From contig AWSN01000001.1 of NCBI GenBank assembly GCA_000505065.1, forward strand, positions 487,772 to 551,771: a DNA stretch of 64,000 nucleotides, given 5' to 3'. The notes under the pieces are model-generated. The model ran no database searches and was not told the origin of the DNA. It was given only the letters and a program-made list of their open reading frames with translations. This DNA is from Parcubacteria bacterium RAAC4_OD1_1. GTDB taxonomy: Bacteria > Patescibacteriota > Minisyncoccia > Phycocordibacterales > UBA9973. The first letter of the stretch is position 1, and each line of letters opens with the position of its first letter. Below are positions 44,860 to 62,419 of this stretch, piece by piece. The position numbers and the translations under genes are program-made.

Positions 44860-45767
44860 GGAAATATAAAGCCAAAAAGCATCTGGGGCAAAACTTTTTA
44901 AAATCTAAAGAAGCAATTAAAACTATATGTGATGCTGGAAAAGTAGAAAAAGAAGATATTATCTTGGAAATTGGCCCCGGGAAAGGGGTTCTCACTGAGG
45001 AGTTGCTAAAAAGAGGGGCAAAAATTCTAGCAATTGAAAAAGACAATGATTTAATTAATTTTTTAATAGAAAAATTTGAATCTTTTCTTCCGTCCACACC
45101 GGGTATGGACATAGATACAAAAAGGTTAAATATAATAAATGAAGATATTTTGGATTTTGATATTTCAAAATATGGACTTTTAGATAAAAAATACAAAATA
45201 ATTGCAAATATTCCATATAATATAACAGGGGCAATAATAAAGAAATTCTTAAGTGAGATCAAAAATAAGCCTATTTTAATGGCTATTTTGGTGCAAAAAG
45301 AGGTTGCGGAAAGAATTGTTGCAAAAAACAGAAAAATAAATAAGCAAAAAACAGAAGCTGTCCAGGCCTTGCCTGGACAGTCCAGGCCTTGCCTGGACAG
45401 TGGGGGGAAGGAGAGTATATTGTCATTGAGTGTGAAAGCTTATGGAGATCCTAAATATATAATGAAAGTATCAAAAAAATATTTCTCACCAGCCCCAAAA
45501 GTGGACTCCGCGATAATACTTATAGATAATATTTCCGATAAAAATTTTAAAAACAATGATGAGGAAAAAACCTTTTTTGATCTAGTTCATGCTGGATTTA
45601 GTCATAAAAGAAAATTATTTATAAAAAACATAGAAAATTTAGATTACCAAAAAGAAAAAATTAAAAAAATGTTTGAAATATTAGAAATTGATAAAAAAAT
45701 AAGAGCAGAAGATATACCTTTTTATAAATGGATAGAAATGAAAGATTTTTTAACTACAAAAAACTAG
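44796..45767 (+). CDS. rsmA: 16S rRNA (adenine1518/1519-N6)-dimethyltransferase RsmA/KsgA carrying three in-frame P2 palindromes
   Basis: LGQNFL and EIGPGKGVLT motifs. The start ATG overlaps the RAYT stop (ATGA). One P2 copy sits in the N-terminal extension (TVQARPGQW), and a tandem pair sits mid-gene (AVQALPGQSRPCLDSGG). Confidence 0.8.
   Translation: MNINKNKFNSVRNTVQARPGQWKYKAKKHLGQNFLKSKEAIKTICDAGKVEKEDIILEIGPGKGVLTEELLKRGAKILAIEKDNDLINFLIEKFESFLPSTPGMDIDTKRLNIINEDILDFDISKYGLLDKKYKIIANIPYNITGAIIKKFLSEIKNKPILMAILVQKEVAERIVAKNRKINKQKTEAVQALPGQSRPCLDSGGKESILSLSVKAYGDPKYIMKVSKKYFSPAPKVDSAIILIDNISDKNFKNNDEEKTFFDLVHAGFSHKRKLFIKNIENLDYQKEKIKKMFEILEIDKKIRAEDIPFYKWIEMKDFLTTKN
45358..45407. repeat. 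Tandem double P2 palindrome inside rsmA
   Basis: ctgtccaggccttgcctggacag is followed immediately by tccaggccttgcctggacagtgggggg. Confidence 0.9.
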
Positions 45768-49605: not shown

Positions 49606-51696
49606 ATGGAAAACAAACCTAAAAAAAGTAAAGCGTTCATAATAACATTTATACTAGTACTAATAATACTTTTGGTGGGTTATTTATTATTTAAAAATAA
49701 AAATGGAATCTTTCAAATAAATAGTACAGAAAATACAAACAAAACTTTTGAATCTCTTTCGGAAACAAAAGAAGTAAAAGATTTGGGATATATAGACGTA
49801 GATACTGCAAATGAATGTATCTCTATTTCTGTAATTGCTGAAGAGGATATTTTTAAAGGTGAAGCAGTGTATGTATCCGGAGTAGGAGCAAACAAAGAAC
49901 CATTAGCAAAGAAAGCTATAGCAAATGATGAAACAAAATCAAAAGTAATTGGTGTCGCTATGGCAAATATTTTAGCTGGTACTACAGGAATAATAGCAAA
50001 TGATTGTATTGTGACAGGATTAAATACAGACAGAAATGAGGAGACTGTATGGCAAATAGGAGATATCCTCTACTTAAGTGATACAATATCAGGAGCTCTT
50101 ACAAAAAACCCTCCATCAAACAAAATAATAGTAGGAGTAGTAAAAACAGTTAATGCAATTGATGGATCTATTAAAGTGGGAGGAGCTGGAACAAATATTT
50201 TTGACTTATCGCAAGCTATTAAAGATGCAGGGATAGACACCAGCAAAGGAATAGTTTACGCAATAGAAAAATTGAAAAAACTGTTTGGAAATATTTTTGG
50301 ATATGAATACAATGGAGGAGAGTTTGATGCTAATGGACTAGGTGAGTGGGTTTGGGATGAAGAATATGGTGGATTTGTTTGGAAATGGAAAGGTGGTACA
50401 GGCGGATTTACTGGGCCAGATTTTCCAGATTTTGGATTTGAAAAAGCTTGTAGTAATGAAAACGATGATGACGGGGACGGATTTACAGATATAAATGATC
50501 CACAATGTCATATCGATGGAATTATTACAAATGAATATGTGCCTACACATTATTCAGAAGAGATAAATGCCATAAATCCAAATTTATATGCTTGCAGCAA
50601 TACACTTGATGATGATAACGATGAATTAATAGATATAAATGATCCACAATGTCATATCGATGGAATTATTACAAACGAATATGTGCCTACACATTATTCA
50701 GAAGAAATAAATGCTCCAAATTCAGATATAATACCGACACCAGATAGTGTTTGTGAAAATGGTATGTCCAACTATCCACTTTGTACAATTAACGAAAATG
50801 GAAATTGTGGAAATGGTGCGATAAACCCACCAATATGTACAGAATTTAGTAATGAAGATGAAACAGATCCAACAGGTGAAAATACTGAAACAAATATGTG
50901 TGCAGTTTTTGATGAACATCCTCTTGAATTTACAGAGAGTGAAAAAGCACAGCTTGCAGAACTTCTTCGAGAATTTTATTTAATTGCTCCTACTCTCAAA
51001 ACAGAAGATGATATAGATGCTCTATATACTGAAATAAATAGATATGAGCAATTAATAGATCAGTCAAAAAAACTTACCAAACAGTGTTATCTTGAATCTG
51101 CATATAGTGCACAATGGGAATATAATGATCCAACATGGACATATGCAGGGGCTGGATCATTCTGTGCAAGAAATCCAGAATACTGTAGTAAAAAGGGTGT
51201 CACGAGTCAAACAAATTGTGATCTTTATGGATGCGCAGATGGAGTAGATGTATTTAATGATAAATACACAGGCCCTACAAAAAGAGGAGGGAACCCTTGG
51301 TTTAGGTCAATAACAATAGGTGGATATGTAGATAACACAAAATACAGCACACCAAAGATAAATACTGACGTAAATTATGTTATGAAAAGTCACGGCAATG
51401 ATAGACCAGAAAGCTCAAAACATTCACAAGAAGTACTAGAGAGTGGGTGGTGGACTTATGCAACGCCTATTTTTGGTGTGTTTACAACATTTAAAGCTTT
51501 TGATGAAAAAAATATGGTGCCTGATTATTATTTTACAATACCAAATACAATATATACTCCACTAATTACAAAACTACCTGCATCTCAAAATGGTAGAAAC
51601 TTTCAACAAGATTGGGAATTCTATTTTGATTTTGATTTAAACAAGGTTATGTTGGAAAGACTTAAAGAGTTTGAGTTGTTACTTTATATCTGGTAA
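49606..51696 (+). CDS. Hypothetical membrane-anchored extracellular protein with duplicated DDDGDG...DPQC calcium-binding-like repeats
   Basis: 696 aa with an N-terminal TM helix. A ~55-aa repeat occurs twice, encoded by a near-identical ~85-bp direct repeat. Confidence 0.5.
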   Translation: MENKPKKSKAFIITFILVLIILLVGYLLFKNKNGIFQINSTENTNKTFESLSETKEVKDLGYIDVDTANECISISVIAEEDIFKGEAVYVSGVGANKEPLAKKAIANDETKSKVIGVAMANILAGTTGIIANDCIVTGLNTDRNEETVWQIGDILYLSDTISGALTKNPPSNKIIVGVVKTVNAIDGSIKVGGAGTNIFDLSQAIKDAGIDTSKGIVYAIEKLKKLFGNIFGYEYNGGEFDANGLGEWVWDEEYGGFVWKWKGGTGGFTGPDFPDFGFEKACSNENDDDGDGFTDINDPQCHIDGIITNEYVPTHYSEEINAINPNLYACSNTLDDDNDELIDINDPQCHIDGIITNEYVPTHYSEEINAPNSDIIPTPDSVCENGMSNYPLCTINENGNCGNGAINPPICTEFSNEDETDPTGENTETNMCAVFDEHPLEFTESEKAQLAELLREFYLIAPTLKTEDDIDALYTEINRYEQLIDQSKKLTKQCYLESAYSAQWEYNDPTWTYAGAGSFCARNPEYCSKKGVTSQTNCDLYGCADGVDVFNDKYTGPTKRGGNPWFRSITIGGYVDNTKYSTPKINTDVNYVMKSHGNDRPESSKHSQEVLESGWWTYATPIFGVFTTFKAFDEKNMVPDYYFTIPNTIYTPLITKLPASQNGRNFQQDWEFYFDFDLNKVMLERLKEFELLLYIW

Positions 51697-51779: not shown

Positions 51780-54464
51780 ATGAAGAAGTTTTTTTCCTAC
51801 ATTTTAATATCAATAGTTATGGTGGCCAACCTCCTCGCGCCTTTTAGTATGAAATTGGGGAGTAATTATTTGCCAAGAATTGAAAAAAATGAAGCGAGTG
51901 CAGATGCAAAGCAAATAACAATGACAACAACAGCGAAGGGAACAACAATAAACGCAACAGTAACAGCTGTATTTACGGGTGAAGCTAATCAAATAAATTT
52001 TGCTTCTGTTTTTCTATATGATCAATACCCATATGATGAAAACAATAAACCAGCTGAAATAGATTCTATTGATAGTAGAGATGTTTTTGGAGAATTTAAA
52101 ATTTTAAACAATGATGAGGATATAACCAAAACAGCAACCGTGTCATTTGACAATCTAACTCCTGAAAAAACATATTATTTGGTAGCAGTAGGTGGTACAA
52201 AAAGTATCTTTAAAGCTTTAATTAATTTAAACACACTAAGATTTAATAAACTTTTTGAGTCAACAAGTAAAACTGGTTATACAAATGCAATACCACAAGA
52301 AACAGGAATGAAAGACTCCCAAGTTTTAATCCAAGGATCTGGAACAGCATCTGCTTTTAATGCAGACGCGGCTCTACCTTCTTGTAAGGCAACAGATGCA
52401 ACTACTTGGGTTCGAGGTTGTGTAGTTAGACTTATTTATTATATTATTTTTGTGCCAACATCTTTTTTCTTTGCATTAACTGGAATGTTTCTTGATTCAA
52501 CATTTGCTTATACAGTAGATAGTGCTTCATATCAAACTCAATTCATAACCCAAAGTTGGGGAATAGTTAGAGACCTTTGTAATATGTTCTTTATATTTGT
52601 ACTTCTATATATTGCTTTTTCAACAATACTCGAAATACATGGATTTAATACAAAAAAGACAATTATTAATGTAATAATCATTGGTCTTTTAATAAATTTC
52701 AGTTTATTTGCTGTGAGAATTATGGTGGATGCATCAAACATACTAGCTAGGGTTTTCTATAACTCAGATACAATAAAAATTACTAACGTCTCAGCCTTAA
52801 ATATCAGTAATATGGTAGATAAACCAAACGAAAATGGAGTAATTTCTATCTCGGCTGCTATTGTAAACAAAATAAACCCACAAGTTTTAATATTAAAAGC
52901 AAATGGCAATGAACAAGCTGGAATGGGTGGTTTCTCAACTATCTCTTATGTTGTTATTGTGTTACTTGCTTCTATTGTAAATATAGTGGGCATAATAGTA
53001 TTCCTATCTACAGGATTACTTTTTGTGACAAGAGTCATAGGGCTTTGGATAGCGATGATACTTTCTCCACTTGCATTTTTTACCTATATAATTCCATCTT
53101 GGAGTAAACAAAAAATGATAGGATGGGAAAACTGGTGGCCAGACACTCTAAAAATGGCTTTCCTTGCTCCTATTTTTATTTTCTTTATGTATATAATTCT
53201 TCAATTTATGGATACAGGACTTGGGCTTTTTGATGCAGCAGAAGAAGAAGGAATGACATTAATATTAGCAATAGTTATTCCTTTCATATTTATAATGATA
53301 CTTCTCTGGCAAGCGAAAAAAATTGCAAGCGATATGTCTGGAGAAATGGGACAATCTATAACTAAAGGTGTCGCTGCTGTCGGTGGCCTTGCTCTCGGTG
53401 GGGCAGCTTTGGGAGTAGCAGGATTGGGTAGAAAGTTTATAGGTGGAACAATGGCAAAAGCCTCTAGTGGAAATACTGCAACTCAAAAATATCTGGCAGC
53501 ACAAGGAGACCCTAATGCTATGGCTAAATTAAGCAAATGGGAACAAATGAAAGGTAGAATGGGGGCAAGAGTTGGTATGGATAAAGTTTACGGGAGGGTT
53601 GGAACAGATGCAAATGGAAATAAAGTTATTACCGGAGGGGTTGGAAAATATGTAAACGATAAACAAAAACATGTTGGTAATATAGATCATGCGAGACATG
53701 AAATGGATGAAACTAAAAAAGCAGCTGGGCTTACTGGGGTTACAAACTTAACCGGGGAAGATGAGAAGAAGCTTGAATCAACTTTTGCAAAAAATAAAAG
53801 ATCTGAAGTTGAAGCTAATGTAAGAAGAGGAACGGATAATAAAAAAGATATTGCATTAAAAGATAATGATGGTAATGCACTATTAGATGGACAGGGAAAT
53901 GAAATTAAGGGTGAAGATGCTTGGAAAAAAGAAAAGAGAAGTGAAATTGAAACTAATTACATAAATGATCCTAATAATAATATAAAAAGTGTAGAAGATC
54001 TAACAGATAAAGATAAGAAAAATATTGAAAATGAATTAAATAAACAATTTAACCTTGTTCTTAAAAATACAACAGAAAAAGAAATTAAAAGTTTATTTGA
54101 AGATATTAAGAAAGAGGCAAATACAAAAGTTGGTTCTCTTGATAGAGTAACAGCAACAGCAAACAAAAGAAGCTTTGACATAAGAAACATTTCAGATGTT
54201 AATAAAACAGACAAAAGAGATGGTTTTATGACAAAAACAGCTGCATTTTTGGCTTCTACTGTCGCACTTGGTGTGAGGACAGGATTTAAAACTTCAGGAA
54301 TTAACATTGGAACAAGTCAAAGGGATTTTATTTTGGATTTAAAAAATACAATTACTGAAGCATTTAAAAATGTAAAAATTGAAGTCCCTAAAGCTTCTGG
54401 TGGAGGAGATCATGGGGGTGGGGGACACGGAGGAGGCGATCACGGAGGTGGGGGACACCATTAA
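51780..54464 (+). CDS. Large polytopic membrane protein, possible VirB6/TrbL-like T4SS channel component, with Gly/His-rich C-terminal tail
   Basis: The signal peptide and ectodomain are followed by at least 6 TM helices, a coiled C-terminal domain, and a GGGDHGGGGHGGGDHGGGGHH tail. Confidence 0.35.
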   Translation: MKKFFSYILISIVMVANLLAPFSMKLGSNYLPRIEKNEASADAKQITMTTTAKGTTINATVTAVFTGEANQINFASVFLYDQYPYDENNKPAEIDSIDSRDVFGEFKILNNDEDITKTATVSFDNLTPEKTYYLVAVGGTKSIFKALINLNTLRFNKLFESTSKTGYTNAIPQETGMKDSQVLIQGSGTASAFNADAALPSCKATDATTWVRGCVVRLIYYIIFVPTSFFFALTGMFLDSTFAYTVDSASYQTQFITQSWGIVRDLCNMFFIFVLLYIAFSTILEIHGFNTKKTIINVIIIGLLINFSLFAVRIMVDASNILARVFYNSDTIKITNVSALNISNMVDKPNENGVISISAAIVNKINPQVLILKANGNEQAGMGGFSTISYVVIVLLASIVNIVGIIVFLSTGLLFVTRVIGLWIAMILSPLAFFTYIIPSWSKQKMIGWENWWPDTLKMAFLAPIFIFFMYIILQFMDTGLGLFDAAEEEGMTLILAIVIPFIFIMILLWQAKKIASDMSGEMGQSITKGVAAVGGLALGGAALGVAGLGRKFIGGTMAKASSGNTATQKYLAAQGDPNAMAKLSKWEQMKGRMGARVGMDKVYGRVGTDANGNKVITGGVGKYVNDKQKHVGNIDHARHEMDETKKAAGLTGVTNLTGEDEKKLESTFAKNKRSEVEANVRRGTDNKKDIALKDNDGNALLDGQGNEIKGEDAWKKEKRSEIETNYINDPNNNIKSVEDLTDKDKKNIENELNKQFNLVLKNTTEKEIKSLFEDIKKEANTKVGSLDRVTATANKRSFDIRNISDVNKTDKRDGFMTKTAAFLASTVALGVRTGFKTSGINIGTSQRDFILDLKNTITEAFKNVKIEVPKASGGGDHGGGGHGGGDHGGGGHH

Positions 54465-54513: not shown

Positions 54514-55437
54514 ATGCAAAACCAAGAATTACAACAAAAAATAGGAGAATTCTATGTAAGACTTCCAGAAGATTTAAAAAGTGTGTTTTCTGATATGAGT
54601 TGGATGGAAAAAGTTCGGACAATTGGTGTAAAAAATTATTTAAATGATAGACAAAAAGAAATTCTAATTACAGAAACAACCTTAGTCCTTCTTGGAATAA
54701 TAAATACTTATGATTATGAATCAAACCTTACAAACGAGCTTGGTCTTTCTGTTGAACCTCTCACTAAACTCATAAAAGATTTGGATGAATCTATTTTTGT
54801 GGGTATAAAAGAAAAACTAAATGATGTATTTACAAACAACGTAGATTATTTAATGACTTCAAAATATGGTAGTTTAGATAAAATAAAGGAAGAATTTACA
54901 AAACTCCCAGAAGAAATACAAGAATGGATAGATAATTCAAATTATCAATCAAAAATATATGAAATAGGTGAAAAATATAAACTTACTGCGACCCAAATGC
55001 TAGATATTGAAGGAATCATCTCAAGAGTTATGATGGGTAATTTACCTTTTCTTAAATATGAAGAAGAAATCAAATTAAAACTTGGTGATGGTTTTCCAAA
55101 AATAAATCCAATTTTATATGAAATAAAAGAAAACATATTAAAAGAAGCGGAAGAAAAATTAAACAAATTGACAGTTCTAAATAAAATAGGAGCAACAAAA
55201 ATAGAGATAAATAAAGGAGAAGATGTTGTACCAAGACCTCCATATGCTCAAATGATCACAAATAATTATGATCTTAAGGGAGAAAGGGTAAACAATGTTA
55301 GAAGTTCTATTTTAGTATCAAAACCAGCCCCTAAAAATGAAAAAGAAATATACACAAATTCGGGAATAGAAATAGTTGAACACCAAGAAGAAACTCAATC
55401 TAAACCAAAAATAGACCCTTATCACGAGGAAATATAA
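54514..55437 (+). CDS. Hypothetical cytoplasmic protein
   Basis: 307 aa. An ACTAG-repeat motif lies upstream. Confidence 0.45.
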   Translation: MQNQELQQKIGEFYVRLPEDLKSVFSDMSWMEKVRTIGVKNYLNDRQKEILITETTLVLLGIINTYDYESNLTNELGLSVEPLTKLIKDLDESIFVGIKEKLNDVFTNNVDYLMTSKYGSLDKIKEEFTKLPEEIQEWIDNSNYQSKIYEIGEKYKLTATQMLDIEGIISRVMMGNLPFLKYEEEIKLKLGDGFPKINPILYEIKENILKEAEEKLNKLTVLNKIGATKIEINKGEDVVPRPPYAQMITNNYDLKGERVNNVRSSILVSKPAPKNEKEIYTNSGIEIVEHQEETQSKPKIDPYHEEI

Positions 55438-55497: not shown

Positions 55498-56013
55498 ATG
55501 CAATTTAGAGTTCCACAATTTATAGACATAGAAGACAAACTTTTTGGACCGTTTACGTTTCGGCAATTTGTATATCTCACTGGTGGAGCAGGGGGAGTTT
55601 TTGTACTATATAAAATTTTACCATTTTGGCTAGCAATTATTTTTATAATACCCGTCATTTCACTAACTCTACTTCTCACTTTTTATAAAATTAATGAGAA
55701 ACCATTTATATATTACCTAGAAGCAGGTCTTGGTTATTTTATATCAAACAAATTATATCTCTGGAAACAAAGAAAAGTTAAAAAAAATACAGAGGAAATA
55801 AATACTTCTGTTAATATTACTTCTGTAATCCCAATGTCAACAGGGAGTAATAGGCTTGGTGATTTATCTTTCAAATTAGATACAGAAGGAGAAAATACAA
55901 ATATCTCGGCTTATAAACAAATGAAAAAAGATAATGCTCAAAAAATAGATCTAAACATTACAGAAGAAGATATAGTAAAAGATATTTCAAATTATGATAC
56001 AATAAACAAATAA
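55498..56013 (+). CDS. Small two-TM membrane protein, VirB3-like (position immediately upstream of VirB4-like genes)
   Basis: A hairpin of two TM helices (VYLTGGAGGVFVLYKILPFWLAIIFIIPVISLTLLL) sits immediately upstream of the VirB4-like ORFs. Confidence 0.35.
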   Translation: MQFRVPQFIDIEDKLFGPFTFRQFVYLTGGAGGVFVLYKILPFWLAIIFIIPVISLTLLLTFYKINEKPFIYYLEAGLGYFISNKLYLWKQRKVKKNTEEINTSVNITSVIPMSTGSNRLGDLSFKLDTEGENTNISAYKQMKKDNAQKIDLNITEEDIVKDISNYDTINK

Positions 56014-56019
56014 ACAAAT

Positions 56020-56667
56020 ATGGCAATCAACGCAAAAAGTTCACAAGATTTTGTACCAATAAAAGAAGTGAGAGATGGGGTTATCATTCTTAAAGATGGA
56101 GGCCTTCGTTCTGTTCTTATTGCTTCATCTATAAATTTGTCACTTAAATCAAACGATGAACAACTTGCAATAATAAATCAGTTTCAATCATTCTTAAATG
56201 GTCTTGATTTTCAAACACAAATTGTCGTCCAATCAAGAAGACTAGACATAAGACCATATTTAATGACACTTGAAGAAAGATTTAAAGAGCAAGTAGAGCC
56301 ACTTCTTAAAATTCAAACCAAAGAATACATAGAGTTTATAACTCGGTTTACTGATGAAGTAAACATAATGAGAAAAACTTTCTTTGTTGTTGTACCTTAT
56401 AATTCAAACATTATAAAATCTAGTGAAAAAATAGTGGATAAAATTATAGGTGGAGGATCATCAGCACCCAAAAATCCAAACAAAAGTATAGATACAGCTT
56501 CGTTTGAGGAAAAGAGAACTCAGCTAGACCAAAGAGTAAATGTTATAATTTCTGAATTAAGTAGACTTGGTATAAGATGTACAGAACTCAAATCAGATGA
56601 AGTAATAGAGCTATTTTATAAAACTTTCAATCCTGGAGATATTAGTAGTGGAATAAAATTAGAATAA
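56020..56667 (+). CDS. VirB4/TrbE/CagE N-terminal domain-like protein (first half of a split VirB4)
   Basis: DGVIILKDGGLRSVLIASSINLSLKSNDEQLAIINQFQSFL aligns with the VirB4 N-terminal region DHIVLLEDGSIMAMFHLHGLPFELAPNEERNARIEALNMLL, which I recalled from A. tumefaciens VirB4. Confidence 0.45.
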   Translation: MAINAKSSQDFVPIKEVRDGVIILKDGGLRSVLIASSINLSLKSNDEQLAIINQFQSFLNGLDFQTQIVVQSRRLDIRPYLMTLEERFKEQVEPLLKIQTKEYIEFITRFTDEVNIMRKTFFVVVPYNSNIIKSSEKIVDKIIGGGSSAPKNPNKSIDTASFEEKRTQLDQRVNVIISELSRLGIRCTELKSDEVIELFYKTFNPGDISSGIKLE

Positions 56668-56674
56668 TATTATT

Positions 56675-58504
56675 ATGGGAATTTTTTCATCATTATTTAA
56701 TAAAAAAAACGATAATACAAAGAGTAGCAAAACTCCGATCCTTCCAGATGAGGTCTATAAAGCTGCTGAACTCGAACTCCAAGACATAGTAGCCCCATCA
56801 GCGCTTCAAATAACCCCCAAATCATTAAATTTAGGAGATAAGATAGCCAGAACATTTTTTGTTATCTCATATCCTAGATACCTTACAGATAATTGGTTTT
56901 CTCCGGTTATAAACCTAGATAAAGTTTTTGATGTTTCTATTTTTATACATCCTATTGAAACCGCTGAAATATTAAGATCTTTCCAAAAGAAAGTTGCTGA
57001 AGTGCAAAGTCAGATATCTATCAGGGAATCAAAAGGTTTAGTTCGAGACCCAATGCTAGACACAGCCTATCATGACTTAGAAGAATTGAGGGACAACCTT
57101 ATGCAAGCCCAAGAAAGGATGTTTAATGTGGGCCTTTATATAACGGTCTATGCAGATAATGAAAATGATTTATTTAAAATAGAAAATGAAATTAAATCTA
57201 TTTTGGAATCCAAGCTTGTTTATTTAAAACCTGCTCTTTTCCAACAAGTAGAAGGTTTTAAAAGTGTAATTCCACTCGGTACAGATATGCTTGCTGTTCA
57301 TCAAAAATTAAACACTGAGCCACTTTCTAGTATTTTTCCATTTGTATCTTTTGATCTTACTTCAGATAATGGAATACTTTATGGTGTAAACAGACATAAT
57401 TCTAGTTTGATTATTTTTGACAGATTTTCACTTCCAAACTATAACTCTATTACTTTTGCTACTTCTGGTGCTGGTAAATCATATGCCACTAAACTAGAAA
57501 TTCTTAGAACTTTAATGTTTGACACAGAAGTAATAGTTATAGACCCAGAAAGAGAGTATGAATACCTTGCAGAAGCAGCAGGAGGAAGGTATTTTAATAT
57601 TGCACTTTCTTCAGAACACCATATAAATCCTTTTGATCTACCAATTCCTACCAAAGACGAAACGGGAGCTGATGTTCTTCGAGGGAACATTATAAACCTT
57701 GTCGGTCTTTTTAGAATAATGCTAGGAGGTTTAACACCTGAAGAAGATTCAATAATAGACAGGGCAATAACTGAAACATATGCTTTAAAAGACATTACAG
57801 CAGAATCAAATTTCTCAAATATCGAGCCACCATTATTATCTGATTTTGAAATGGTCCTAGCTGGTATGGAGGGAAGTGAATCATTAATGCAAAGACTCAC
57901 CAAATACACCAAAGGATCTTGGGCATCTTTCTTAAACCAACCATCAAATATAAACATAAATCATAAGTTTATAGTTTTTTCTGTGAGAGATATGGAAGAT
58001 GAGCTCAAACCAATTGCAATGTATATTGTTACACATTATATTTGGAATTCTGTCAGAAAAAATATAAAGAAAAGACTACTTGTGGTAGATGAAGCCTGGT
58101 GGATGATGAAATCAGAAGATACAGCTTCCTTCTTATATTCTATAGCTAAAAGAGGCCGTAAATACTATTTAGGGCTAGCTACAATTACTCAGGATGTGGG
58201 TGACTTTATGAAAAGTAATTATGGTATTCCTATTATTACAAACTCTTCAATACAACTCCTACTAAAACAATCTCCTTCAACAATAGACGCTCTTCAAAAT
58301 ACTTTTAATCTCACAGATGAAGAAAAGTATCTACTTCTTGAAGCAAACACAGGGGAAGGAATATTTTTTGCTGGACTCAAACACGTAGCTGTAAAAGTAA
58401 TCTCTTCTTATACTGAGGACCAAATTATAACATCAGACCCATCTCAAATACTCTCAATTCAAAAAGCCAAAGAAGAGTTTCTTGCCTCAGGTGGCAACAA
58501 ATAA
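56675..58504 (+). CDS. VirB4-like type IV secretion ATPase, C-terminal ATPase part
   Basis: Walker A TSGAGKSY, Walker B LLVVDEAWWMM, and a downstream ATITQDVGDF motif. Confidence 0.6.
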   Translation: MGIFSSLFNKKNDNTKSSKTPILPDEVYKAAELELQDIVAPSALQITPKSLNLGDKIARTFFVISYPRYLTDNWFSPVINLDKVFDVSIFIHPIETAEILRSFQKKVAEVQSQISIRESKGLVRDPMLDTAYHDLEELRDNLMQAQERMFNVGLYITVYADNENDLFKIENEIKSILESKLVYLKPALFQQVEGFKSVIPLGTDMLAVHQKLNTEPLSSIFPFVSFDLTSDNGILYGVNRHNSSLIIFDRFSLPNYNSITFATSGAGKSYATKLEILRTLMFDTEVIVIDPEREYEYLAEAAGGRYFNIALSSEHHINPFDLPIPTKDETGADVLRGNIINLVGLFRIMLGGLTPEEDSIIDRAITETYALKDITAESNFSNIEPPLLSDFEMVLAGMEGSESLMQRLTKYTKGSWASFLNQPSNININHKFIVFSVRDMEDELKPIAMYIVTHYIWNSVRKNIKKRLLVVDEAWWMMKSEDTASFLYSIAKRGRKYYLGLATITQDVGDFMKSNYGIPIITNSSIQLLLKQSPSTIDALQNTFNLTDEEKYLLLEANTGEGIFFAGLKHVAVKVISSYTEDQIITSDPSQILSIQKAKEEFLASGGNK

Positions 58505-58548: not shown

Positions 58549-59544
58549 ATGAGCCTAAAGACAAAAATTTTTTTATTAATTTCTATTATTGTTGGTGTTT
58601 TTACCATATCAAATTTTTCTAACGCAGAACAAGAAATTATGGTTCTTGAAAGTGATATAAATGTAGAAACTATTCCAGAAAACCCAGAACCATATCAAGA
58701 TATCACTATTATACTCAAAAGTTATGCTACTGATTTAAACAAAGCCAAAATAGAGTGGCTTATGGGTTCAAGTGTGGTCCTTTCTGGAATAGGAAAAACC
58801 AAATACTCTTTTACGGCACCAGGTCCAAATGAAACAACAACTTTTAGTGTTTCTATAACTCCACAAAATTCAATATCTAATATCTTAAAAAAAATATCAA
58901 TAAACCCATCAGAAATAGAGCTTATATGGGAAGCAGTAGATAGCTACACCCCTCCTTTCTATAAAGGAAAATCTTTTGCGAGTAGAGAGGGGAAAATAAA
59001 AGTTGTCGCAATCCCAAACACCAATACTATAAAATCTGGAAAGGGGAGTGTCTCATATACTTGGAAATATGGTGAGGGGGAGAACACAGACCAAAATGCT
59101 TCTGGCTATGGTAAGGATTATTTTATAATTAAAAACAAAGCTTTAAATACAAAAGAATATGTAAAAATTATAGCTTCTTCTGTTGATGGTAAATATAATG
59201 CAACAAAGAAAATTGAAATTCCACTGGTAAATTCAAAAATACTTTTTTACAAAAAATCTCCAACAGAAGGAGTGCTTTATAGTGAAGCAATAAAAGATGA
59301 TTCTTATTTAGAGGAAGATGAAATCACCCTCGTCGCAGAACCATACTTTTTTTCTATAGAAAATCCAAAATCAATTGTTTATAACTGGAAAGTAAACAAT
59401 AAAAGCATAGATACACCAAGTAAAAAAACTGAAGTGACTCTTCGTCCCGCTTCTCGAGGTGGGTACGCCACAATAGGGCTCACAATGGAAGATATGAGTG
59501 CCCTTTTTCAAAAAGTTACTAGTAGTATAAAAATAAATTTATAA
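58549..59544 (+). CDS. Secreted hypothetical protein
   Basis: 331 aa with a signal peptide. Confidence 0.45.
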   Translation: MSLKTKIFLLISIIVGVFTISNFSNAEQEIMVLESDINVETIPENPEPYQDITIILKSYATDLNKAKIEWLMGSSVVLSGIGKTKYSFTAPGPNETTTFSVSITPQNSISNILKKISINPSEIELIWEAVDSYTPPFYKGKSFASREGKIKVVAIPNTNTIKSGKGSVSYTWKYGEGENTDQNASGYGKDYFIIKNKALNTKEYVKIIASSVDGKYNATKKIEIPLVNSKILFYKKSPTEGVLYSEAIKDDSYLEEDEITLVAEPYFFSIENPKSIVYNWKVNNKSIDTPSKKTEVTLRPASRGGYATIGLTMEDMSALFQKVTSSIKINL

Positions 59545-59545
59545 A

Positions 59546-60955
59546 ATGAATAAAAAAATATTTTTTAAAATTCTAATATCATCAATTATCGTATTAAATA
59601 CAATAATGCCATTTAATATATCTGTTGCAAATAGTAAAAATATTGAAATAACAGTAAATCCAGATGATACTAATAATTTAGGAATAAATATTGATGGAGT
59701 TTTTAGGGTAAATGAAGAAATTTCTTCTGGTATGGTTATATATTCTATAAGTAAAAACCCTGATGATTATGCAACAAAAACAGTATTTAATGAGGAACTT
59801 AATACTAATGGTAAAGAAAGTAGTGGAATATGGTCATATAGTTTTGGACAAAAATTATATCAATACTCAAATGGTGGAAATGATCTTTTGGGTGTAGTTA
59901 AAGGGGATAAATACTATGCTACCGTAATCATAATAACTTCAGCAACATCACAACATTCTGAATATAAATATGTAAGCAATACAGTTTTGTTTACAGCTGG
60001 AACTCCATCTGAAACTCCTCCACTAGGTGGAGGTCAAATCGAAGATGAACCAATAGACATAGAAACAAGAAATAATATTGGAAATGTAAATTTAAATGAA
60101 TACCAACCTCTTGCTCCAATTCCAGGATTTACAGATGAAACAGTAAGTACTAACAACATAGGCCAATACTTCAATGTTATATTTAAATTTGCAATTGGAC
60201 TTGCTGGGGCACTTGCTGTGATAATGATAATAATAGGTGGAATTCAATATATGGGAGATGAATCAATTTTTGGAAAAACTGAGGCTAAAAAAAGAATTTT
60301 TTCTGCTATACTTGGGCTTCTTATTGCACTTGGCTCGTGGGCAATACTAAACACAATAGATCCAAATTTACTAGGAACTAAAGGATTAAAAGTAAAACAA
60401 GTTAGTTTTGAAATAGTTAACCTTCCAGATGCTGGTGATAATACTATAGACCCAGATTTTAACACTGGTTCTGGTAGTTATTCTGTAGGAACTGTTTCTC
60501 CTAGTGTCGCAAATGCAGTAACAAAATTAAAACAAGGATGGGAAATTGATGCTTTTAGAGTTTACCCTAGCAACAACAGAATGGTAATTTCATTAAAAAA
60601 AGGAAGTGAGGTAGATAATACAAATCTAATAACAATATCTCCAGGAGAAAATGGATATGCTGAAATTGGAAAAGGTGTCGTTAGGGATGGTAAAACACCA
60701 AAGGGTGAATGGAAAATATTGAGCATAAGAAAATCAAAAGATAATCAACCTGTATACAGTGCCGAAGGGGCAAATATGGGAGCAACTTTTTGGTTATTAA
60801 GTCCTACAAATAATGGAGAAAGGGGGATAGGGATGCATGGTAATAAAAATGGGACCTTGGGCGAAACAGCAGGATGTTTAAGATTAACAAATGCAGACCT
60901 ATTAGCATTATTACCATATGTAAAAACAGGAATATCTGTTAATATTAAAGATTAA
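59546..60955 (+). CDS. Secreted protein with internal VirB2/TrbC pilin-like two-helix hairpin and C-terminal L,D-transpeptidase (YkuD)-like domain
   Basis: The hydrophobic pair is FKFAIGLAGALAVIMIIIGGIQY...RIFSAILGLLIALGSWAILN. The C-terminal motif is GMHGNKNGTLGETAGCLRL. Confidence 0.45.
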   Translation: MNKKIFFKILISSIIVLNTIMPFNISVANSKNIEITVNPDDTNNLGINIDGVFRVNEEISSGMVIYSISKNPDDYATKTVFNEELNTNGKESSGIWSYSFGQKLYQYSNGGNDLLGVVKGDKYYATVIIITSATSQHSEYKYVSNTVLFTAGTPSETPPLGGGQIEDEPIDIETRNNIGNVNLNEYQPLAPIPGFTDETVSTNNIGQYFNVIFKFAIGLAGALAVIMIIIGGIQYMGDESIFGKTEAKKRIFSAILGLLIALGSWAILNTIDPNLLGTKGLKVKQVSFEIVNLPDAGDNTIDPDFNTGSGSYSVGTVSPSVANAVTKLKQGWEIDAFRVYPSNNRMVISLKKGSEVDNTNLITISPGENGYAEIGKGVVRDGKTPKGEWKILSIRKSKDNQPVYSAEGANMGATFWLLSPTNNGERGIGMHGNKNGTLGETAGCLRLTNADLLALLPYVKTGISVNIKD

Positions 60956-60958
60956 TCT

Positions 60959-62419
60959 ATGCAATCAACAAATAATAAAAAAATAATATATTTGATAATA
61001 GGGATAGTAATATTATCTGTTGCTCTTGGTTTTTATTTCTTTAAAAATAGAAATACCAACGTAGAAAAAAATGGGGATGATACAAACTATCAAAATTTTA
61101 ATCCATTTGGAAGCGGAAAAGAAACGGATGGAAATAATATAAAAGAAAATGATATAGAAAATACTAGCAATCTAGAAGAAAATTCAAAATTTAAAAAATT
61201 AACTGATTTTGCTGTGGCTGGAATAACAATCTTTGAATACGACAGACCACTTGATGGATCAAAAGTAGTAGAACCAATAAAAATTTTAATTGATTCATCT
61301 ACAAAAGATGGTAAAAAAGAAATTCAGACTTTTTTAAATAAAGAATTAAGTTTAAATCCTGCTCTTAAAATAGATGGAGTATTGGGTAAAGCTTCAATCT
61401 CTGCAATAAAATCATTCCAAAAAACAAAAACACTTCCAGAAACAGGAATGATAGACGAGGAAACAAATAAATATTTTTATAAATTAGATAATTCAAACAT
61501 ACAACAAACAGAAAAAGTAGAAGCTGTTAAATATGTAGAAAAAGCTACTGGACACATATACCAAATAGATTTAGACAAAAACACACAAAACAAAGTTTCA
61601 AATTCTACAATACCTCAAATTAATGAAGTCTTGTTTAGTGATAATGCAAAAAGTATCATTTATAGATATTTATCTGAAGATAAAACAATAAGTTCTTATC
61701 TAGCAACAATGGGGGCAACAAGTGGAAATTTTCTACCTTCAAATATTATTGAAATAGCAACATCACCAACTAAAGATAAGGTTTTTTATCTTGTTAAAAA
61801 TGAAGATGGTGTTTATGGAACTATTAGAAATTTTATAGACGGTAGAACAAATTCATTTTTTAATTCATCTTTTACAGAATGGCTTATAGATTGGGATAGG
61901 GAAGACCAAATACTCCTTACAACAAAGCCATCGTGGTCTGTAAATGGAAGCTTATTTGCTTTAAACATAAACACGGGAACTATGACAAAAATATTGGGTG
62001 GAATAAAAGGATTTACTACCACATCAAACAAAGATAATTCTTTGATTTTATATAGTTCTTCAACAAACAATGGTCCAAAATTAAATATTTTTAATATAGA
62101 CAAACATACATCTCTTGATTTAGACACTTATGGATTAGCAGACAAATGTGTATGGAGTAATGATGGTGTAAATATTTATTGTGCAATTCCTAGTAAAATA
62201 GTAGGAAATGAATATCCAGATGCTTGGTATCAAGGACTTGTTTCTTTTGATGATTTTTTTGTAAAAATAAATAGTGAAACAGGAGAGAAAGAAACCTTAG
62301 CAAATAGTATAAATAAAATAAGCTTAGATGGTGTTAATTTGTTATTAAATAAAGATGAAAGTAAAATCTTTTTTATAAATAAAAAAGATAATACATTTTG
62401 GAGTTTAGATCTTAAATAA
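60959..62419 (+). CDS. Membrane-anchored protein with peptidoglycan-binding domain (PG_binding_1-like) and C-terminal beta-rich domain
   Basis: KIDGVLGKASISAIKSFQKTKTLPETGMIDEETNKYF matches a PG-binding domain. There is an N-terminal TM helix. Confidence 0.5.
   Translation: MQSTNNKKIIYLIIGIVILSVALGFYFFKNRNTNVEKNGDDTNYQNFNPFGSGKETDGNNIKENDIENTSNLEENSKFKKLTDFAVAGITIFEYDRPLDGSKVVEPIKILIDSSTKDGKKEIQTFLNKELSLNPALKIDGVLGKASISAIKSFQKTKTLPETGMIDEETNKYFYKLDNSNIQQTEKVEAVKYVEKATGHIYQIDLDKNTQNKVSNSTIPQINEVLFSDNAKSIIYRYLSEDKTISSYLATMGATSGNFLPSNIIEIATSPTKDKVFYLVKNEDGVYGTIRNFIDGRTNSFFNSSFTEWLIDWDREDQILLTTKPSWSVNGSLFALNINTGTMTKILGGIKGFTTTSNKDNSLILYSSSTNNGPKLNIFNIDKHTSLDLDTYGLADKCVWSNDGVNIYCAIPSKIVGNEYPDAWYQGLVSFDDFFVKINSETGEKETLANSINKISLDGVNLLLNKDESKIFFINKKDNTFWSLDLK

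What the first reader, a model, noticed from the sequence alone, without database searches (positions are those of the whole stretch)
59546..60955. Pilin-like hairpin fused to an L,D-transpeptidase-like catalytic domain
A 469-aa secreted protein has a central pair of hydrophobic helices separated by a short K/R-containing loop, like the VirB2/TrbC pilin fold. It ends with a YkuD-type motif, HG(x12)GCLR. Coupling a pilus or pilin-like module to a peptidoglycan cross-linking or editing enzyme within a secretion cluster is unusual. It may locally remodel the wall for apparatus assembly.
Basis: inference. Interest (0 to 1): 0.5.

Follow-up and report, generated by a model that had tools for sequence, protein, structure and literature searches.

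The report
Pilin-like hairpin with swappable wall enzyme
The gene is real and encodes a membrane hairpin of a type IV secretion system joined to an intact cell-wall-editing enzyme; in related ultra-small (CPR) bacteria the same gene slot keeps the hairpin but swaps in unrelated wall-cutting enzymes, a pattern I did not find described in the papers I could search.

Summary
ORF 59546-60955 (+) encodes 469 aa, identical to a 'hypothetical protein' of a Candidatus Nomurabacteria MAG. It has an N-terminal signal or anchor, a variable N-domain, a two-helix hairpin and a C-terminal YkuD domain. The hairpin passes Pfam T4SS_pilin (PF18895). The YkuD domain has a confident fold and conserved His431/Cys444/Arg446. 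One correction: the motif is HG-x10-GCLR, not x12.

The gene occupies a fixed slot in a chromosomal type IV secretion cluster beside oriC: VirB6-like, PrgI/VirB3, TrsD, VirB4, a 331-aa protein, this gene, then a PG_binding_1 protein.

The fusion is typical of Paceibacteria rather than unusual. In 72 related loci the slot is conserved. The hairpin is kept, at about 60-70% identity. The C-terminal head is YkuD, VanY/M15, SLT, NlpC/P60, amidase or unknown, and the N-domain is also replaced. This happens even between loci whose flanks are 92-100% identical in DNA.

Best reading: a secretion-system-tethered peptidoglycan editor, a VirB1-like role on a VirB2-like anchor. The target wall, own or host, is unresolved. 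New variant of a known kind; interest about 0.6.

The parts
59546..60955 (+). Whole gene: 469-aa hairpin-YkuD fusion protein
   Evidence: ORF and translation. 100% identical to P0001, a 'hypothetical protein' of a Candidatus Nomurabacteria MAG.
59546..59629 (+). N-terminal signal peptide or membrane anchor (aa 1-28, MNKK + hydrophobic core, ...SVA)
   Evidence: Kyte-Doolittle segments within 4-28. Helix 3-24 in the model. Cleavage was not tested.
59630..60091 (+). Hypervariable N-terminal extracytoplasmic domain (aa 29-182), beta-rich, fold unresolved
   Evidence: pLDDT <50 with a few predicted strands. Not conserved in the 50-sequence alignment. Homologous in only 9% of closely related locus pairs. 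The alignment with the nearest relative, L008, breaks exactly here.
60101..60124 (+). Conserved pre-hairpin motif Y-x-[LP]-L-A-P-I-P/G (aa 186-193, YQPLAPIP)
   Evidence: Y186, L189 and P191 are invariant across fusions with different enzymes. Function unknown.
60158..60355 (+). VirB2-like / T4SS_pilin two-helix membrane hairpin (aa 205-270) with conserved loop MGDESIFGKTEAKKR
   Evidence: Pfam PF18895 above its gathering score. NCBIfam NF045849 'Mbov_0395 pilin-like conjugal transfer protein' matched by 77 of 81 family hairpins. Model helices at pLDDT about 90. Loop residues M236, G237, S240, F242, K244, T245 and K248 are invariant.
60356..60496 (+). Linker between TM2 and the enzyme (aa 271-317), including the conserved DLPDAGD-x-T[IV]DPDF stretch of the YkuD-type heads
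   Evidence: Consensus of the 50 YkuD-type fusions. pLDDT is low at 271-289 and >90 from about 290.
60497..60952 (+). YkuD (L,D-transpeptidase-fold) catalytic domain (aa 318-469)
60836..60883 (+). Catalytic motif H431-G-x10-G-C444-L-R446
   Evidence: Aligns to H123/C139/R141 of B. subtilis YkuD. H431 is kept in 49/50, C444 in 49/50, R446 in 46/50 and G443 in 50/50 homologues.
51780..54464 (+). Polytopic VirB6/TrbL-like protein (894 aa) of the same cluster
   Evidence: Multiple hydrophobic helices in the sequence. The orthologue in L006 has a weak TrbL_3 hit. Syntenic in the related loci where the 8-10 kb flank reaches it.
54514..55437 (+). Conserved 307-aa protein of unknown function in the cluster
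   Evidence: A gene of similar size (187-350 aa) sits at this position in L003-L006. BLASTP homologues in 44 loci, median pairwise identity 33%. No family hit.
55498..56013 (+). PrgI / VirB3-like protein
   Evidence: Pfam PrgI PF12666, E 1.9e-8.
56020..56667 (+). TrsD / TraC-like protein (resembles the VirB4 N-terminal part)
   Evidence: NCBIfam TrsD and VirB4_plasma hits. Precomputed PF26593 TraC-like.
56675..58504 (+). VirB4-like ATPase
   Evidence: Pfam P-loop_TraG E 3.7e-25, AAA_10, DUF87. Median 87% amino-acid identity among related loci.
58549..59544 (+). 331-aa exported protein, always directly upstream of the hairpin gene
   Evidence: A homologue starts about 1.0 kb upstream of the hairpin gene in nearly all loci. 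Only weak PKD-like similarity.
60959..62419 (+). 486-aa membrane-anchored PG_binding_1 protein, directly downstream in nearly all loci
   Evidence: Pfam PG_binding_1, E 2.8e-7. Homologue directly downstream in nearly all loci.

Best explanation
This is the VirB2-like (Pfam T4SS_pilin) membrane subunit of the chromosomal, oriC-adjacent type IV secretion system of a Paceibacteria/Nomurabacteria (CPR) bacterium. In this lineage it has been built into a three-part protein.

Proposed mechanism:
- The N-terminal signal or anchor takes the variable N-domain across the membrane.
- The two helices re-enter and leave the membrane, leaving the conserved basic loop in the cytoplasm.
- The C-terminal YkuD domain therefore ends up outside, a short linker away from the membrane surface.
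- The hairpin docks the protein at the secretion machine (VirB3/TrsD/VirB4/VirB6-like neighbours).
- The YkuD head uses Cys444/His431 to attack the L,D bond between positions 3 and 4 of tetrapeptide stems. It either trims them, as the L,D-carboxypeptidases Csd6, Pgp2 and Bd1075 do, or re-links them.
- The result is local editing of peptidoglycan where the apparatus crosses the wall.

So the protein does the job that VirB1-type hydrolases (PrgK, TraG, CwlT) do in other single-membrane systems, but mounted on a VirB2-like anchor.

The window's protein is one allele of a polymorphic locus. The hairpin is retained while the enzyme head and the N-domain are exchanged as cassettes.

Shown: the architecture, fold, catalytic residues, synteny and cassette exchange. 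Inferred: the topology, docking to the machine, the bond attacked, and which wall is the target.
For: Architecture and fold:
- Pfam hits.
- AF2 pLDDT >90 for the hairpin and for residues 290-469.
- Catalytic His, Cys and Arg align to B. subtilis YkuD and are kept in 46-49 of 50 homologues.

Membership of the secretion system:
- The gene sits after PrgI, TrsD, VirB4 and the 331-aa protein, and before the PG_binding_1 protein.
- In 72 related loci the hairpin gene starts about 2.9 kb after the virB4 start, with the same neighbours.

A wall-enzyme role for the head:
- The same slot carries VanY (P0071), SLT (P0073), SLT_2 (P0067) or NlpC/P60 (P0111).
- Censuses of hairpin proteins are dominated by peptidoglycan enzymes. 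Among 107 representatives: VanY 45, SLT 9, NlpC/P60 7, Amidase_2 2, M15_4 2 and others.
- L003 carries two tandem hairpin genes, one weakly SLT-like and one YkuD.

The hairpin is more than an anchor:
- It is 58-69% identical, with invariant loop residues, while the flanking domains are unrelated.

A Rosetta-stone link:
- In Saccharimonadia the same kind of cluster encodes separate lysozyme/cysteine-peptidase and M15B-like proteins plus six stand-alone PF18895 pilins (supplement of PMC10633639).
- That paper's Tn-seq found the T4SS gene cluster, including the pilin genes, essential for epibiotic growth. PMC12102498 reports the peptidase and lysozyme homologues downstream of virB4 as essential too.

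The genome makes its own peptidoglycan:
- A class A PBP is encoded nearby.
Against: - No experiment exists for any member.
- YkuD enzymes are classically cross-linkers, not hole-makers. Trimming stems does not by itself open the mesh.
- The hairpin does not pass the TrbC/VirB2 Pfam threshold. It also has no sequence match to solved pilins.
- Heads are non-homologous in about 86% of locus pairs whose VirB4 is >93% identical. A purely housekeeping assembly factor acting on the cell's own, unchanging wall would not be expected to turn over like this.
- About a quarter of the related loci have heads with no recognisable enzyme family.
Confidence: 0.6

Rival explanations
1. Armed pilin aimed at the host. 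The hairpin is a true VirB2-type subunit that VirB4 extracts from the membrane and polymerises into a pilus or conduit. The N- and C-terminal domains then decorate its outside. The variable N-domain binds the host surface, and the exchangeable enzyme head cuts or edits the host's wall so that the epibiont can reach the host membrane.
For: - Both flanking domains behave as exchangeable cassettes on a conserved core, even between loci with 92-100% identical flanks. This resembles phage receptor-binding or lysin modules and polymorphic effectors.
- The extracytoplasmic neighbours evolve faster than YidC (p331 49%, PG_binding_1 protein 44%, YidC 66%), while VirB4 stays at 87%.
- N-domains sometimes contain TIG or fn3 adhesin-like folds.
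- No other PF18895-type gene is detectable in the 64-kb window.
- T4SS_pilin-domain genes are among the most highly expressed unknown genes in host-attached Paceibacteria (PMC10936435).
Against: - There is no evidence of polymerisation.
- Two domains of 150-190 aa per subunit would crowd a VirB2-type filament (inference from known pilus geometry).
- The linker is short, so an unpolymerised protein reaches only its own wall.
- No co-varying immunity gene follows the head.
- Some Paceibacteria parasitise methanogenic archaea (PMC10936435), and from my own knowledge those hosts lack murein.
Confidence: 0.2
2. Covalent tethering. The YkuD head works as a true transpeptidase that links a component of the secretion system, or the protein itself, to peptidoglycan stems. 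E. coli ErfK/YbiS/YcfS attach Lpp in this way. The result would be a machine bolted to the wall.
For: - The YkuD fold and catalytic residues are intact.
- The gene is flanked by wall-associated proteins, including a PG_binding_1 protein.
- Some source databases name homologues 'lipoprotein-anchoring transpeptidase ErfK/SrfK'. These are automatic names only.
Against: - The same slot in near-identical backgrounds carries hydrolases or lyases (VanY, SLT, NlpC/P60, amidase), which cannot tether anything.
Confidence: 0.08
3. Ordinary housekeeping L,D-transpeptidase that happens to have a two-helix membrane anchor and to lie next to a secretion cluster. It would have no functional tie to the secretion system.
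For: - Hydrophobic hairpins can give spurious profile matches. The PF18895 score is only 1.6 bits above threshold, and TrbC is below threshold.
- The hairpin profile finds no solved pilin.
Against: - The position relative to virB4 is fixed in 72 loci.
- 77 of 81 hairpins hit a conjugation-specific pilin-like family.
- Loop and pre-hairpin residues are invariant.
- A search with the YkuD head alone recovered only hairpin-fused proteins or short-contig fragments. This search was word-index limited.
- The head is replaced by unrelated enzymes while the hairpin stays.
Confidence: 0.03

Closest known systems
VirB1-type wall hydrolases of single-membrane (Gram-positive) conjugation systems: PrgK (pCF10), TraG (pIP501), CwlT (ICEBs1), TcpG (pCW3)
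   Same: They are encoded inside the secretion cluster and membrane-anchored with the enzyme outside. Their modular heads (SLT/lysozyme, CHAP/NlpC-P60, LytM) overlap the head types seen at this slot. Their presumed role is local wall opening for the machine (described in PMC12102498; the rest from my own knowledge).
   Different: - The anchor here is a conserved VirB2-like two-helix hairpin, not a single N-terminal helix.
- The head in the window is YkuD, which I did not find reported as a T4SS-associated enzyme.
- One head per protein is exchanged as a cassette.
VirB2/TrbC pilins and the stand-alone PF18895 'T4SS_pilin' proteins of Saccharimonadia (SEML1_0014-0019)
   Same: Two hydrophobic helices with a short basic loop, an N-out/C-out topology and a gene inside a virB4 cluster. 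Both belong to the same Pfam family, PF18895.
   Different: - Those are proteins of roughly 125-140 aa with no extra domains, often in arrays of divergent copies.
- This one is 469 aa with a 150-aa N-domain and a 190-aa enzyme.
- It is below threshold for TrbC/VirB2 proper.
- Polymerisation is unknown.
Mbov_0395 family pilin-like conjugal transfer protein of mycoplasma ICEs (NCBIfam NF045849)
   Same: It is the best non-CPR sequence relative of the hairpin: 77 of 81 hairpins match, best E 1.2e-10. It belongs to a single-membrane conjugation system. The adjacent TrsD here also matches the mycoplasma ICE VirB4 model.
   Different: The window protein's score (29.3 bits for the hairpin alone, 24.1 for the whole protein) is below the curated cutoff of 40 bits. 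The family model covers only 80 positions and includes no enzyme domain.
YkuD-fold L,D-carboxypeptidases Csd6 (H. pylori), Pgp2 (C. jejuni) and Bd1075 (Bdellovibrio)
   Different: - Sequence identity is only 15-18%.
- Those are soluble periplasmic cell-shape enzymes with an NTF2-like extra domain, not tied to a secretion system.
Tlde1 / Tae5 T6SS effectors (YkuD-related L,D-carboxypeptidase/transpeptidase toxins)
   Different: Those are soluble substrates of a contractile T6SS with a cognate immunity gene. Here the domain is fused to a membrane hairpin and no co-varying immunity gene follows.
Polymorphic toxin / cassette-exchange loci (Rhs, CDI), and modular phage lysins and receptor-binding proteins
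   Same: A conserved core has abruptly non-homologous terminal domains between otherwise near-identical loci.
   Different: - No immunity gene is present.
- Both ends vary.
- The variable heads are wall enzymes rather than nucleases or pore-formers.
- The core is a membrane hairpin of a T4SS.

Membership tests
YkuD / L,D-transpeptidase catalytic domain (PF03734) | Profile match above the curated threshold | tested here: met
   39.6 bits against a gathering score of 23.4, E 1e-9, residues 339-467 covering model positions 6-146 of 146.
YkuD / L,D-transpeptidase catalytic domain (PF03734) | Catalytic His ... Gly-Cys-x-Arg motif in register with a characterised member | tested here: met
   H431/C444/R446 align to H123/C139/R141 of B. 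subtilis YkuD. They are conserved in 49, 49 and 46 of 50 homologues.
YkuD / L,D-transpeptidase catalytic domain (PF03734) | ErfK/YbiS/YcfS-type beta-sandwich fold | tested here: met
YkuD / L,D-transpeptidase catalytic domain (PF03734) | Transpeptidase (cross-linking) rather than carboxypeptidase or amidase activity | not testable with these tools
   Carboxypeptidases (Csd6, Pgp2, Bd1075) and transpeptidases (Ldtfm, LdtMt2) are almost equally close structurally. A muropeptide assay is needed.
T4SS_pilin (PF18895) | Profile match above the curated threshold | tested here: met
   28.2 bits against 26.6, covering model positions 3-71 of 71. The margin is narrow. However, 52 of 66, 87 of 107 and 32 of 36 relatives also match.
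T4SS_pilin (PF18895) | Encoded within a virB4-containing cluster | tested here: met
   The gene starts about 2.9 kb downstream of the virB4 start, here and in 72 related loci.
TrbC/VirB2 pilin (PF04956) | Profile match above the curated threshold | tested here: not met
   18.1 bits against 27.9. Twelve of 107 and 4 of 36 relatives match TrbC (E <=1e-3 and <=1e-2 respectively; best 2.3e-5). The hairpin profile has no match to solved pilin sequences and no tblastn match in 72,556 plasmids.
TrbC/VirB2 pilin (PF04956) | Two transmembrane helices, a short basic cytoplasmic loop, both termini outside | tested here: met
   Hydropathy segments 208-237 and 250-272. The loop has 4 K/R. There is an N-terminal signal or anchor and helices 205-237 and 241-270 in the model. 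The topology itself is inferred.
TrbC/VirB2 pilin (PF04956) | Small mature subunit without extra globular domains | tested here: not met
   469 aa with a roughly 150-aa N-domain and a roughly 190-aa enzyme head.
TrbC/VirB2 pilin (PF04956) | Polymerises into a pilus | not testable with these tools
   Needs microscopy or biochemistry. No multimer modelling was available.
VirB1-like T4SS peptidoglycan hydrolase (functional class) | Lytic transglycosylase/lysozyme and/or CHAP/NlpC-P60 catalytic domain | tested here: not met
   The window protein has YkuD instead. Alleles in the same slot do carry SLT, SLT_2 or NlpC/P60.
VirB1-like T4SS peptidoglycan hydrolase (functional class) | Encoded in the secretion cluster and exported or membrane-anchored | tested here: met
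VirB1-like T4SS peptidoglycan hydrolase (functional class) | Required for assembly or function of the machine | not testable with these tools
   The only indirect support is that separate peptidase and lysozyme genes in the Saccharimonadia cluster are reported essential (PMC12102498 citing PMC10633639).
Polymorphic toxin / effector locus | Conserved core with non-homologous terminal domains between close relatives | tested here: met
   Heads are homologous in 14% and N-domains in 9% of 88 pairs with VirB4 >93% identical. Nucleotide profiles show sharp breakpoints.
Polymorphic toxin / effector locus | Cognate immunity gene co-varying immediately downstream | tested here: not met
   In L009 against L033, identity returns to 92-100% directly after the stop codon, in the conserved PG_binding_1 gene.

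The most novel reading that the evidence does not exclude
The VirB2-like subunit of the Paceibacteria secretion system is a polymorphic, enzyme-carrying pilin. VirB4 polymerises it into a conduit. The outside of that conduit displays an exchangeable adhesin-like N-domain and an exchangeable wall-cutting or wall-editing head. Lineages swap these cassettes to match the envelope of whichever host they attach to. The window's YkuD allele would then be a host-wall L,D-carboxypeptidase or transpeptidase delivered on a filament.
Probability: 0.17. Interest if true: 0.85.

Novelty: new variant of a known kind. Interest (0 to 1): 0.62.

Why it matters
The type IV secretion system is essential for epibiotic growth in the one CPR bacterium that can be manipulated genetically (Wang et al. 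2023). Its role is described as completely unknown (PMC11665869).

[quoted passage not shown] The fusions described here suggest a different answer for Paceibacteria: the wall enzyme is built into the VirB2-like protein itself.

This gives a direct physical link between the pilin-like subunit and wall processing. It also gives a clear experimental handle in the single catalytic cysteine. The natural series of head swaps could reveal what wall the system acts on. It also adds YkuD-fold enzymes to the kinds of wall enzyme associated with secretion systems.

Tried and rejected
- **Chance or artefact.** Rejected. The ORF is intact and identical in several assemblies, and the motif was absent from 20,000 shuffles.
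- **Simple anchor.** Rejected on conservation and synteny.
- **Plasmid-borne relatives.** tblastn of the hairpin against 72,556 plasmids found nothing.
- **A second pilin-like gene in the window.** An HMM of the hairpin against all six-frame ORFs of at least 50 aa found only the gene itself. The rest of the genome could not be searched.
- **Stand-alone relatives of this YkuD head.** The search returned only 7 proteins, all hairpin-fused or fragments. The word index limits this result.
- **Prior description.** The terms YkuD, VanY, fusion and fused did not occur in the held supplements of the 2025 survey, and YkuD and transpeptidase were absent from its text. Other literature searches found no description of hairpin-enzyme fusions. 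Papers outside the held library cannot be excluded, and InterPro architecture tables could not be consulted.
- **AFDB fold search.** Unavailable.
- **Transpeptidase versus carboxypeptidase.** Not resolved, because both classes are near-equal structural neighbours.
Full report
**1. The observation**

The ORF is at the stated coordinates: ATG at 59546, stop at 60953-60955, 469 aa. Hydropathy finds an N-terminal hydrophobic segment within residues 4-28 that ends in SVA. It also finds two central segments, 208-237 and 250-272, separated by the loop GDESIFGKTEAKKR.

Pfam places three families on the protein:
- T4SS_pilin (PF18895) on residues 203-271, 28.2 bits against a gathering score of 26.6.
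- YkuD (PF03734) on residues 339-467, E 1e-9, 39.6 bits against 23.4.
- TrbC/VirB2 (PF04956) below threshold, 18.1 bits against 27.9.

The catalytic motif is HGNKNGTLGETAGCLR at residues 431-446. That is HG-x10-GCLR, not x12. It never appeared in 20,000 shuffles of the protein.

**2. Structure**

I built a 50-sequence alignment of full-length relatives (A1) and used it for an AlphaFold2 model.
- Two long helices, 205-237 and 241-270, have pLDDT of about 90.
- Residues 290-469 form a compact domain with pLDDT above 90.
- Residues 23-182 are unresolved, with pLDDT below 50 and a few predicted strands.

A profile search of PDB sequences aligns H431, C444 and R446 with H123, C139 and R141 of B. 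subtilis YkuD. Across 50 homologues these residues are kept in 49, 49 and 46 sequences, and G443 in all 50. The head is therefore a YkuD fold whose catalytic residues are conserved across the family.

Whether it cross-links or trims cannot be decided. L,D-carboxypeptidases rank marginally first, but true transpeptidases are almost as close.

**3. Where it sits**

The protein is identical to a 'hypothetical protein' of a Candidatus Nomurabacteria MAG. The gene order is:
- a polytopic VirB6-like protein (51780-54464)
- a 307-aa unknown protein
- PrgI/VirB3 (55498-56013)
- TrsD/TraC-like (56020-56667)
- VirB4 (56675-58504)
- a 331-aa exported protein
- this gene
- a PG_binding_1 protein (60959-62419)

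After these come jag, yidC, yidD, rnpA and rpmH on the other strand, and then dnaA and dnaN. This is the oriC-adjacent chromosomal T4SS of Patescibacteria, related to single-membrane conjugation systems, that Quiñonero-Coronel et al. described in 2025 (PMC12102498). A class A PBP lies nearby, so the organism makes peptidoglycan.

**4. The fusion is the rule in this lineage**

The first 55 database hits share hairpin plus YkuD. Beyond them, hits share only the hairpin and carry other wall enzymes.

A search of 1.84 billion cluster representatives with the hairpin alone (residues 183-282) gave 17,246 hits at E <=1e-3 and 3,947 at <=1e-10. The best 150 are mostly 300-600 aa with the hairpin in mid-protein.

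Pfam censuses:

| Set scanned | VanY | NlpC/P60 | SLT | SLT_2 | Amidase_2 | Other |
|---|---|---|---|---|---|---|
| 66 sequences (P0001 plus 65 hairpin-only hits) | 33 | 8 | 2 | 2 | 1 | YkuD 1 (P0001), SLT_3 1 |
| 107 further representatives | 45 | 7 | 9 | 2 | 2 | M15_4 2; one each of M15, Amidase_5, CHAP, GDSL lipase |

TIG or fn3 domains occur in some N-terminal parts. In all the exemplar sequences of each head type where I located the hairpin, the enzyme lies C-terminal to it.

**5. One slot, many heads**

Contigs encoding hairpin fusions of five types show the same neighbourhood. These are YkuD (P0047), VanY (P0071), SLT (P0073), NlpC/P60 (P0111) and SLT_2 (P0067). Where the contig reaches far enough upstream, the order is PrgI, TraC-like, VirB4, a protein of about 330 aa, the hairpin gene, and then a protein that usually carries PG_binding_1.

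A scan of one genome per species found 259 loci. All but one (L012; see section 11) are labelled as CPR or as unclassified bacteria: Paceibacteria, Nomurabacteria, Minisyncoccia, and many deposited as 'uncultured Candidatus Saccharibacteria'.

In the 72 loci where virB4 is within reach:
- the hairpin gene starts about 2.9 kb after the virB4 start
- the 331-aa homologue starts about 1.0 kb upstream
- the PG_binding_1 homologue follows directly

Head types among the 93 hairpin ORFs were YkuD 15, VanY 22, NlpC/P60 7, SLT_2 5, SLT 3, Amidase_2 2 and unclassified 39. Pfam on 36 ORFs from that list (35 unclassified plus L014, already typed YkuD) added SLT 5, SLT_3 2, and one each of M15_4, M15, VanY, 3D and CHAP. 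About twenty heads remain without a recognisable family.

**6. Cassette exchange**

Median pairwise amino-acid identity across loci:

| Protein | Median identity |
|---|---|
| VirB4 | 87% |
| TrsD | 72% |
| YidC | 66% |
| PrgI | 60% |
| 331-aa protein | 49% |
| PG_binding_1 protein | 44% |
| VirB6-like | 42% |
| 307-aa protein | 33% |

The hairpin is 58-69% identical depending on the distance bin.

Among the 88 locus pairs with VirB4 more than 93% identical, only 14% have homologous heads and only 9% have homologous N-domains.

Nucleotide profiles make the point directly. L009 (YkuD) and L033 (VanY) are 92-100% identical through virB4, the 331-aa gene and the PG_binding_1 gene. Inside the hairpin gene the identity changes:
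- N-domain: 33-45%
- hairpin: 86%
- head: 41-48%
- directly after the stop codon: back to 92-100%

The same pattern holds for L007 (SLT_2) against L030 (NlpC/P60) and for L017 against L028.

The window's nearest relative, L008, keeps the hairpin and the YkuD head but has a different N-domain. No gene co-varies with the head, so there is no immunity-like partner.

**7. Is the hairpin 'pilin-like'?**

It belongs to PF18895, narrowly above threshold in this protein and widely matched in relatives. The hairpin region matches NCBIfam NF045849 'Mbov_0395 family pilin-like conjugal transfer protein' of mycoplasma ICEs in 77 of 81 family members, best E 1.2e-10. The window's own hairpin scores 29.3 bits, below that model's curated cutoff of 40.

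It is below threshold for TrbC/VirB2 proper. It has no sequence match to solved pilins or to plasmid genes. Structural matches to the hairpin are generic.

So the module is specific to type IV secretion systems, with VirB2-like topology and remote similarity to VirB2. Whether it polymerises is unknown.

Its conservation argues for specific contacts rather than mere anchoring. The loop residues M236, G237, S240, F242, K244, T245 and K248 and the pre-hairpin residues Y186, L189 and P191 are invariant across fusions with unrelated heads.

**8. Comparison with the literature**

Wang et al. 2023 showed that the T4SS cluster of Southlakia epibionticum is essential for epibiotic growth. [quoted passage not shown]

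Their supplement lists SEML1_0006 (two lysozyme-like domains plus a cysteine peptidase), SEML1_0007 (structurally M15B-like), a VirB6 homologue, and SEML1_0014-0019 as stand-alone PF18895 proteins with domain ranges of about 125-185 residues. Enzymes and pilins are thus separate genes there and a single gene here. This is a Rosetta-stone type of association.

The 2025 survey used PF18895 to call VirB2. It stated that most genomes with VirB2 lack VirB1, so pilus biogenesis appears not to require it. It did note an association of VirB1 with VirB4 in Paceibacteria. I found no mention of hairpin-enzyme fusions, YkuD or VanY in its text or in its held supplements. Other searches also found nothing.

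Kuroda et al. 2024 reported T4SS_pilin-domain and PG-binding-domain proteins among the most highly expressed unknown genes of Paceibacteria attached to methanogens (PMC10936435).

**9. Mechanism**

The best-supported reading is a secretion-system-tethered peptidoglycan editor. The protein would be Sec-inserted with the N-domain out, the loop in and the YkuD head out. The hairpin docks at the machine. Cys444 and His431 act on the position 3-4 L,D bond of tetrapeptide stems.

The functional class is supported by the enzymes that replace YkuD in the same slot. From my own knowledge, the commonest replacement family, VanY/M15B, includes the L,D-carboxypeptidase LdcB, which catalyses the same reaction as Csd6 and Pgp2. 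The YkuD-to-VanY swap could therefore be a like-for-like replacement. That is inference.

What the standard reading does not explain is the rapid exchange of both flanking domains. The main rival, an enzyme-carrying pilin directed at the host envelope, would explain this. It requires polymerisation, which is unshown. It is also weakened by the absence of an immunity gene and by Paceibacteria whose hosts are methanogenic archaea, which from my own knowledge lack murein.

Covalent tethering by transpeptidation, and a coincidental housekeeping enzyme, are unlikely for the reasons given under the rival explanations.

**10. Verdict**

The 'unusual' label is wrong for this lineage, though the architecture appears undescribed in the literature I could search. 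The protein is a new variant of known kinds, joining a VirB1-type role to a VirB2-type module. It has an unexpected polymorphic behaviour that makes the function of the CPR secretion system more testable.

**11. Limits**

- No signal-peptide or multimer predictor was available.
- The N-domain model is unreliable.
- Only 64 kb of this genome and 8-10 kb flanks of the others were examined.
- Database counts are lower bounds.
- AFDB was unavailable.
- One of the 259 loci (L012) sits on a contig deposited as 'uncultured Gammaproteobacteria', probably a binning error.

Noticed in passing
P0121 (618 aa), P0170 (612 aa), P0127 (891 aa), P0160 (1046 aa), P0219 (1147 aa), sequences: Some proteins contain 3 to 10 hairpin modules in tandem within one polypeptide. 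P0121 and P0170 have four hairpins followed by what looks, by eye, like a C-terminal SLT-type lytic transglycosylase motif (not scanned against Pfam). They look like fused versions of the 'pilin arrays' reported for Patescibacteria. Gene-calling read-through was not excluded.
   Followed up: partly
Loci L003-L087, VirB4 orthologues of window 56675-58504; VirB4 is far more conserved between species-level genomes (median 87%, many pairs 93-97%) than the housekeeping insertase YidC next door (66%). The exported components of the same cluster are much less conserved (33-49%).
   Followed up: partly
L003 8120-9964 and 9980-11665; also L051, L059, L081, L087. L005 has a truncated second hairpin ORF at the contig end.: Some genomes carry two hairpin genes. 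They are adjacent in L003, L081 and L087. In L051 and L059 the PG_binding_1 homologue lies between them. In L003 one head is weakly SLT-like and the other is YkuD. This recalls the two-domain glycan-plus-peptide hydrolases of Gram-positive conjugation systems.
   Followed up: partly
window 60092-60391 and window 56020-56667; The hairpin and the adjacent TrsD-like protein both find their best curated-family matches in mycoplasma ICE conjugation proteins (Mbov_0395 pilin-like, Mbov_0397 VirB4). This suggests the VirB2-like module may be native to the single-membrane T4SS lineage rather than borrowed from double-membrane systems, a question the 2025 survey left open.
   Followed up: partly
window 49606-51696 (696 aa) and 46706-49591 (961 aa); Two large exported proteins upstream of the VirB6-like gene have no family hits. 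The 696-aa protein contains a near-exact tandem duplication (…DINDPQCHIDGIITNEYVPTHYSEEINA…) with acidic, calcium-binding-like D-x-D-x-D-G motifs. A similar Cys-flanked acidic motif ends the 961-aa protein.
   Followed up: no
window 51780-54464, C-terminus; The VirB6-like polytopic protein ends in a long charged cytoplasmic extension and a Gly/His-rich tail (GGGDHGGGGHGGGDHGGGGHH).
   Followed up: no
window 44101-44799 (+); An IS200-like Y1 transposase ORF (TTG start as listed) lies between a UvrD-type helicase (42110-44071) and the rRNA adenine dimethylase gene (44796-45767), a few kb upstream of the secretion cluster.
   Followed up: no
L012 (contig CAZXEV010000112.1, 1,891 bp); A short contig encoding a 66%-identical YkuD head of this CPR-specific family is deposited in a MAG labelled 'uncultured Gammaproteobacteria'. 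This is probably a binning contaminant. Many other loci are labelled 'uncultured Candidatus Saccharibacteria' although their synteny is of the Paceibacteria type.
   Followed up: no
L014 7104-9758 (885-aa ORF) and L080 6318-9104 (929-aa ORF); Some alleles are much longer. The YkuD-type L014 protein has about 459 residues after the hairpin, so heads can carry additional domains.
   Followed up: no
window 36310-37479 (-); A LysM + Peptidase_M23 wall hydrolase is encoded about 9 kb upstream of the cluster on the opposite strand. The 2025 survey lists M23 and LysM among the extra domains of VirB1-like proteins in Patescibacteria. No link to this cluster was tested.
   Followed up: no
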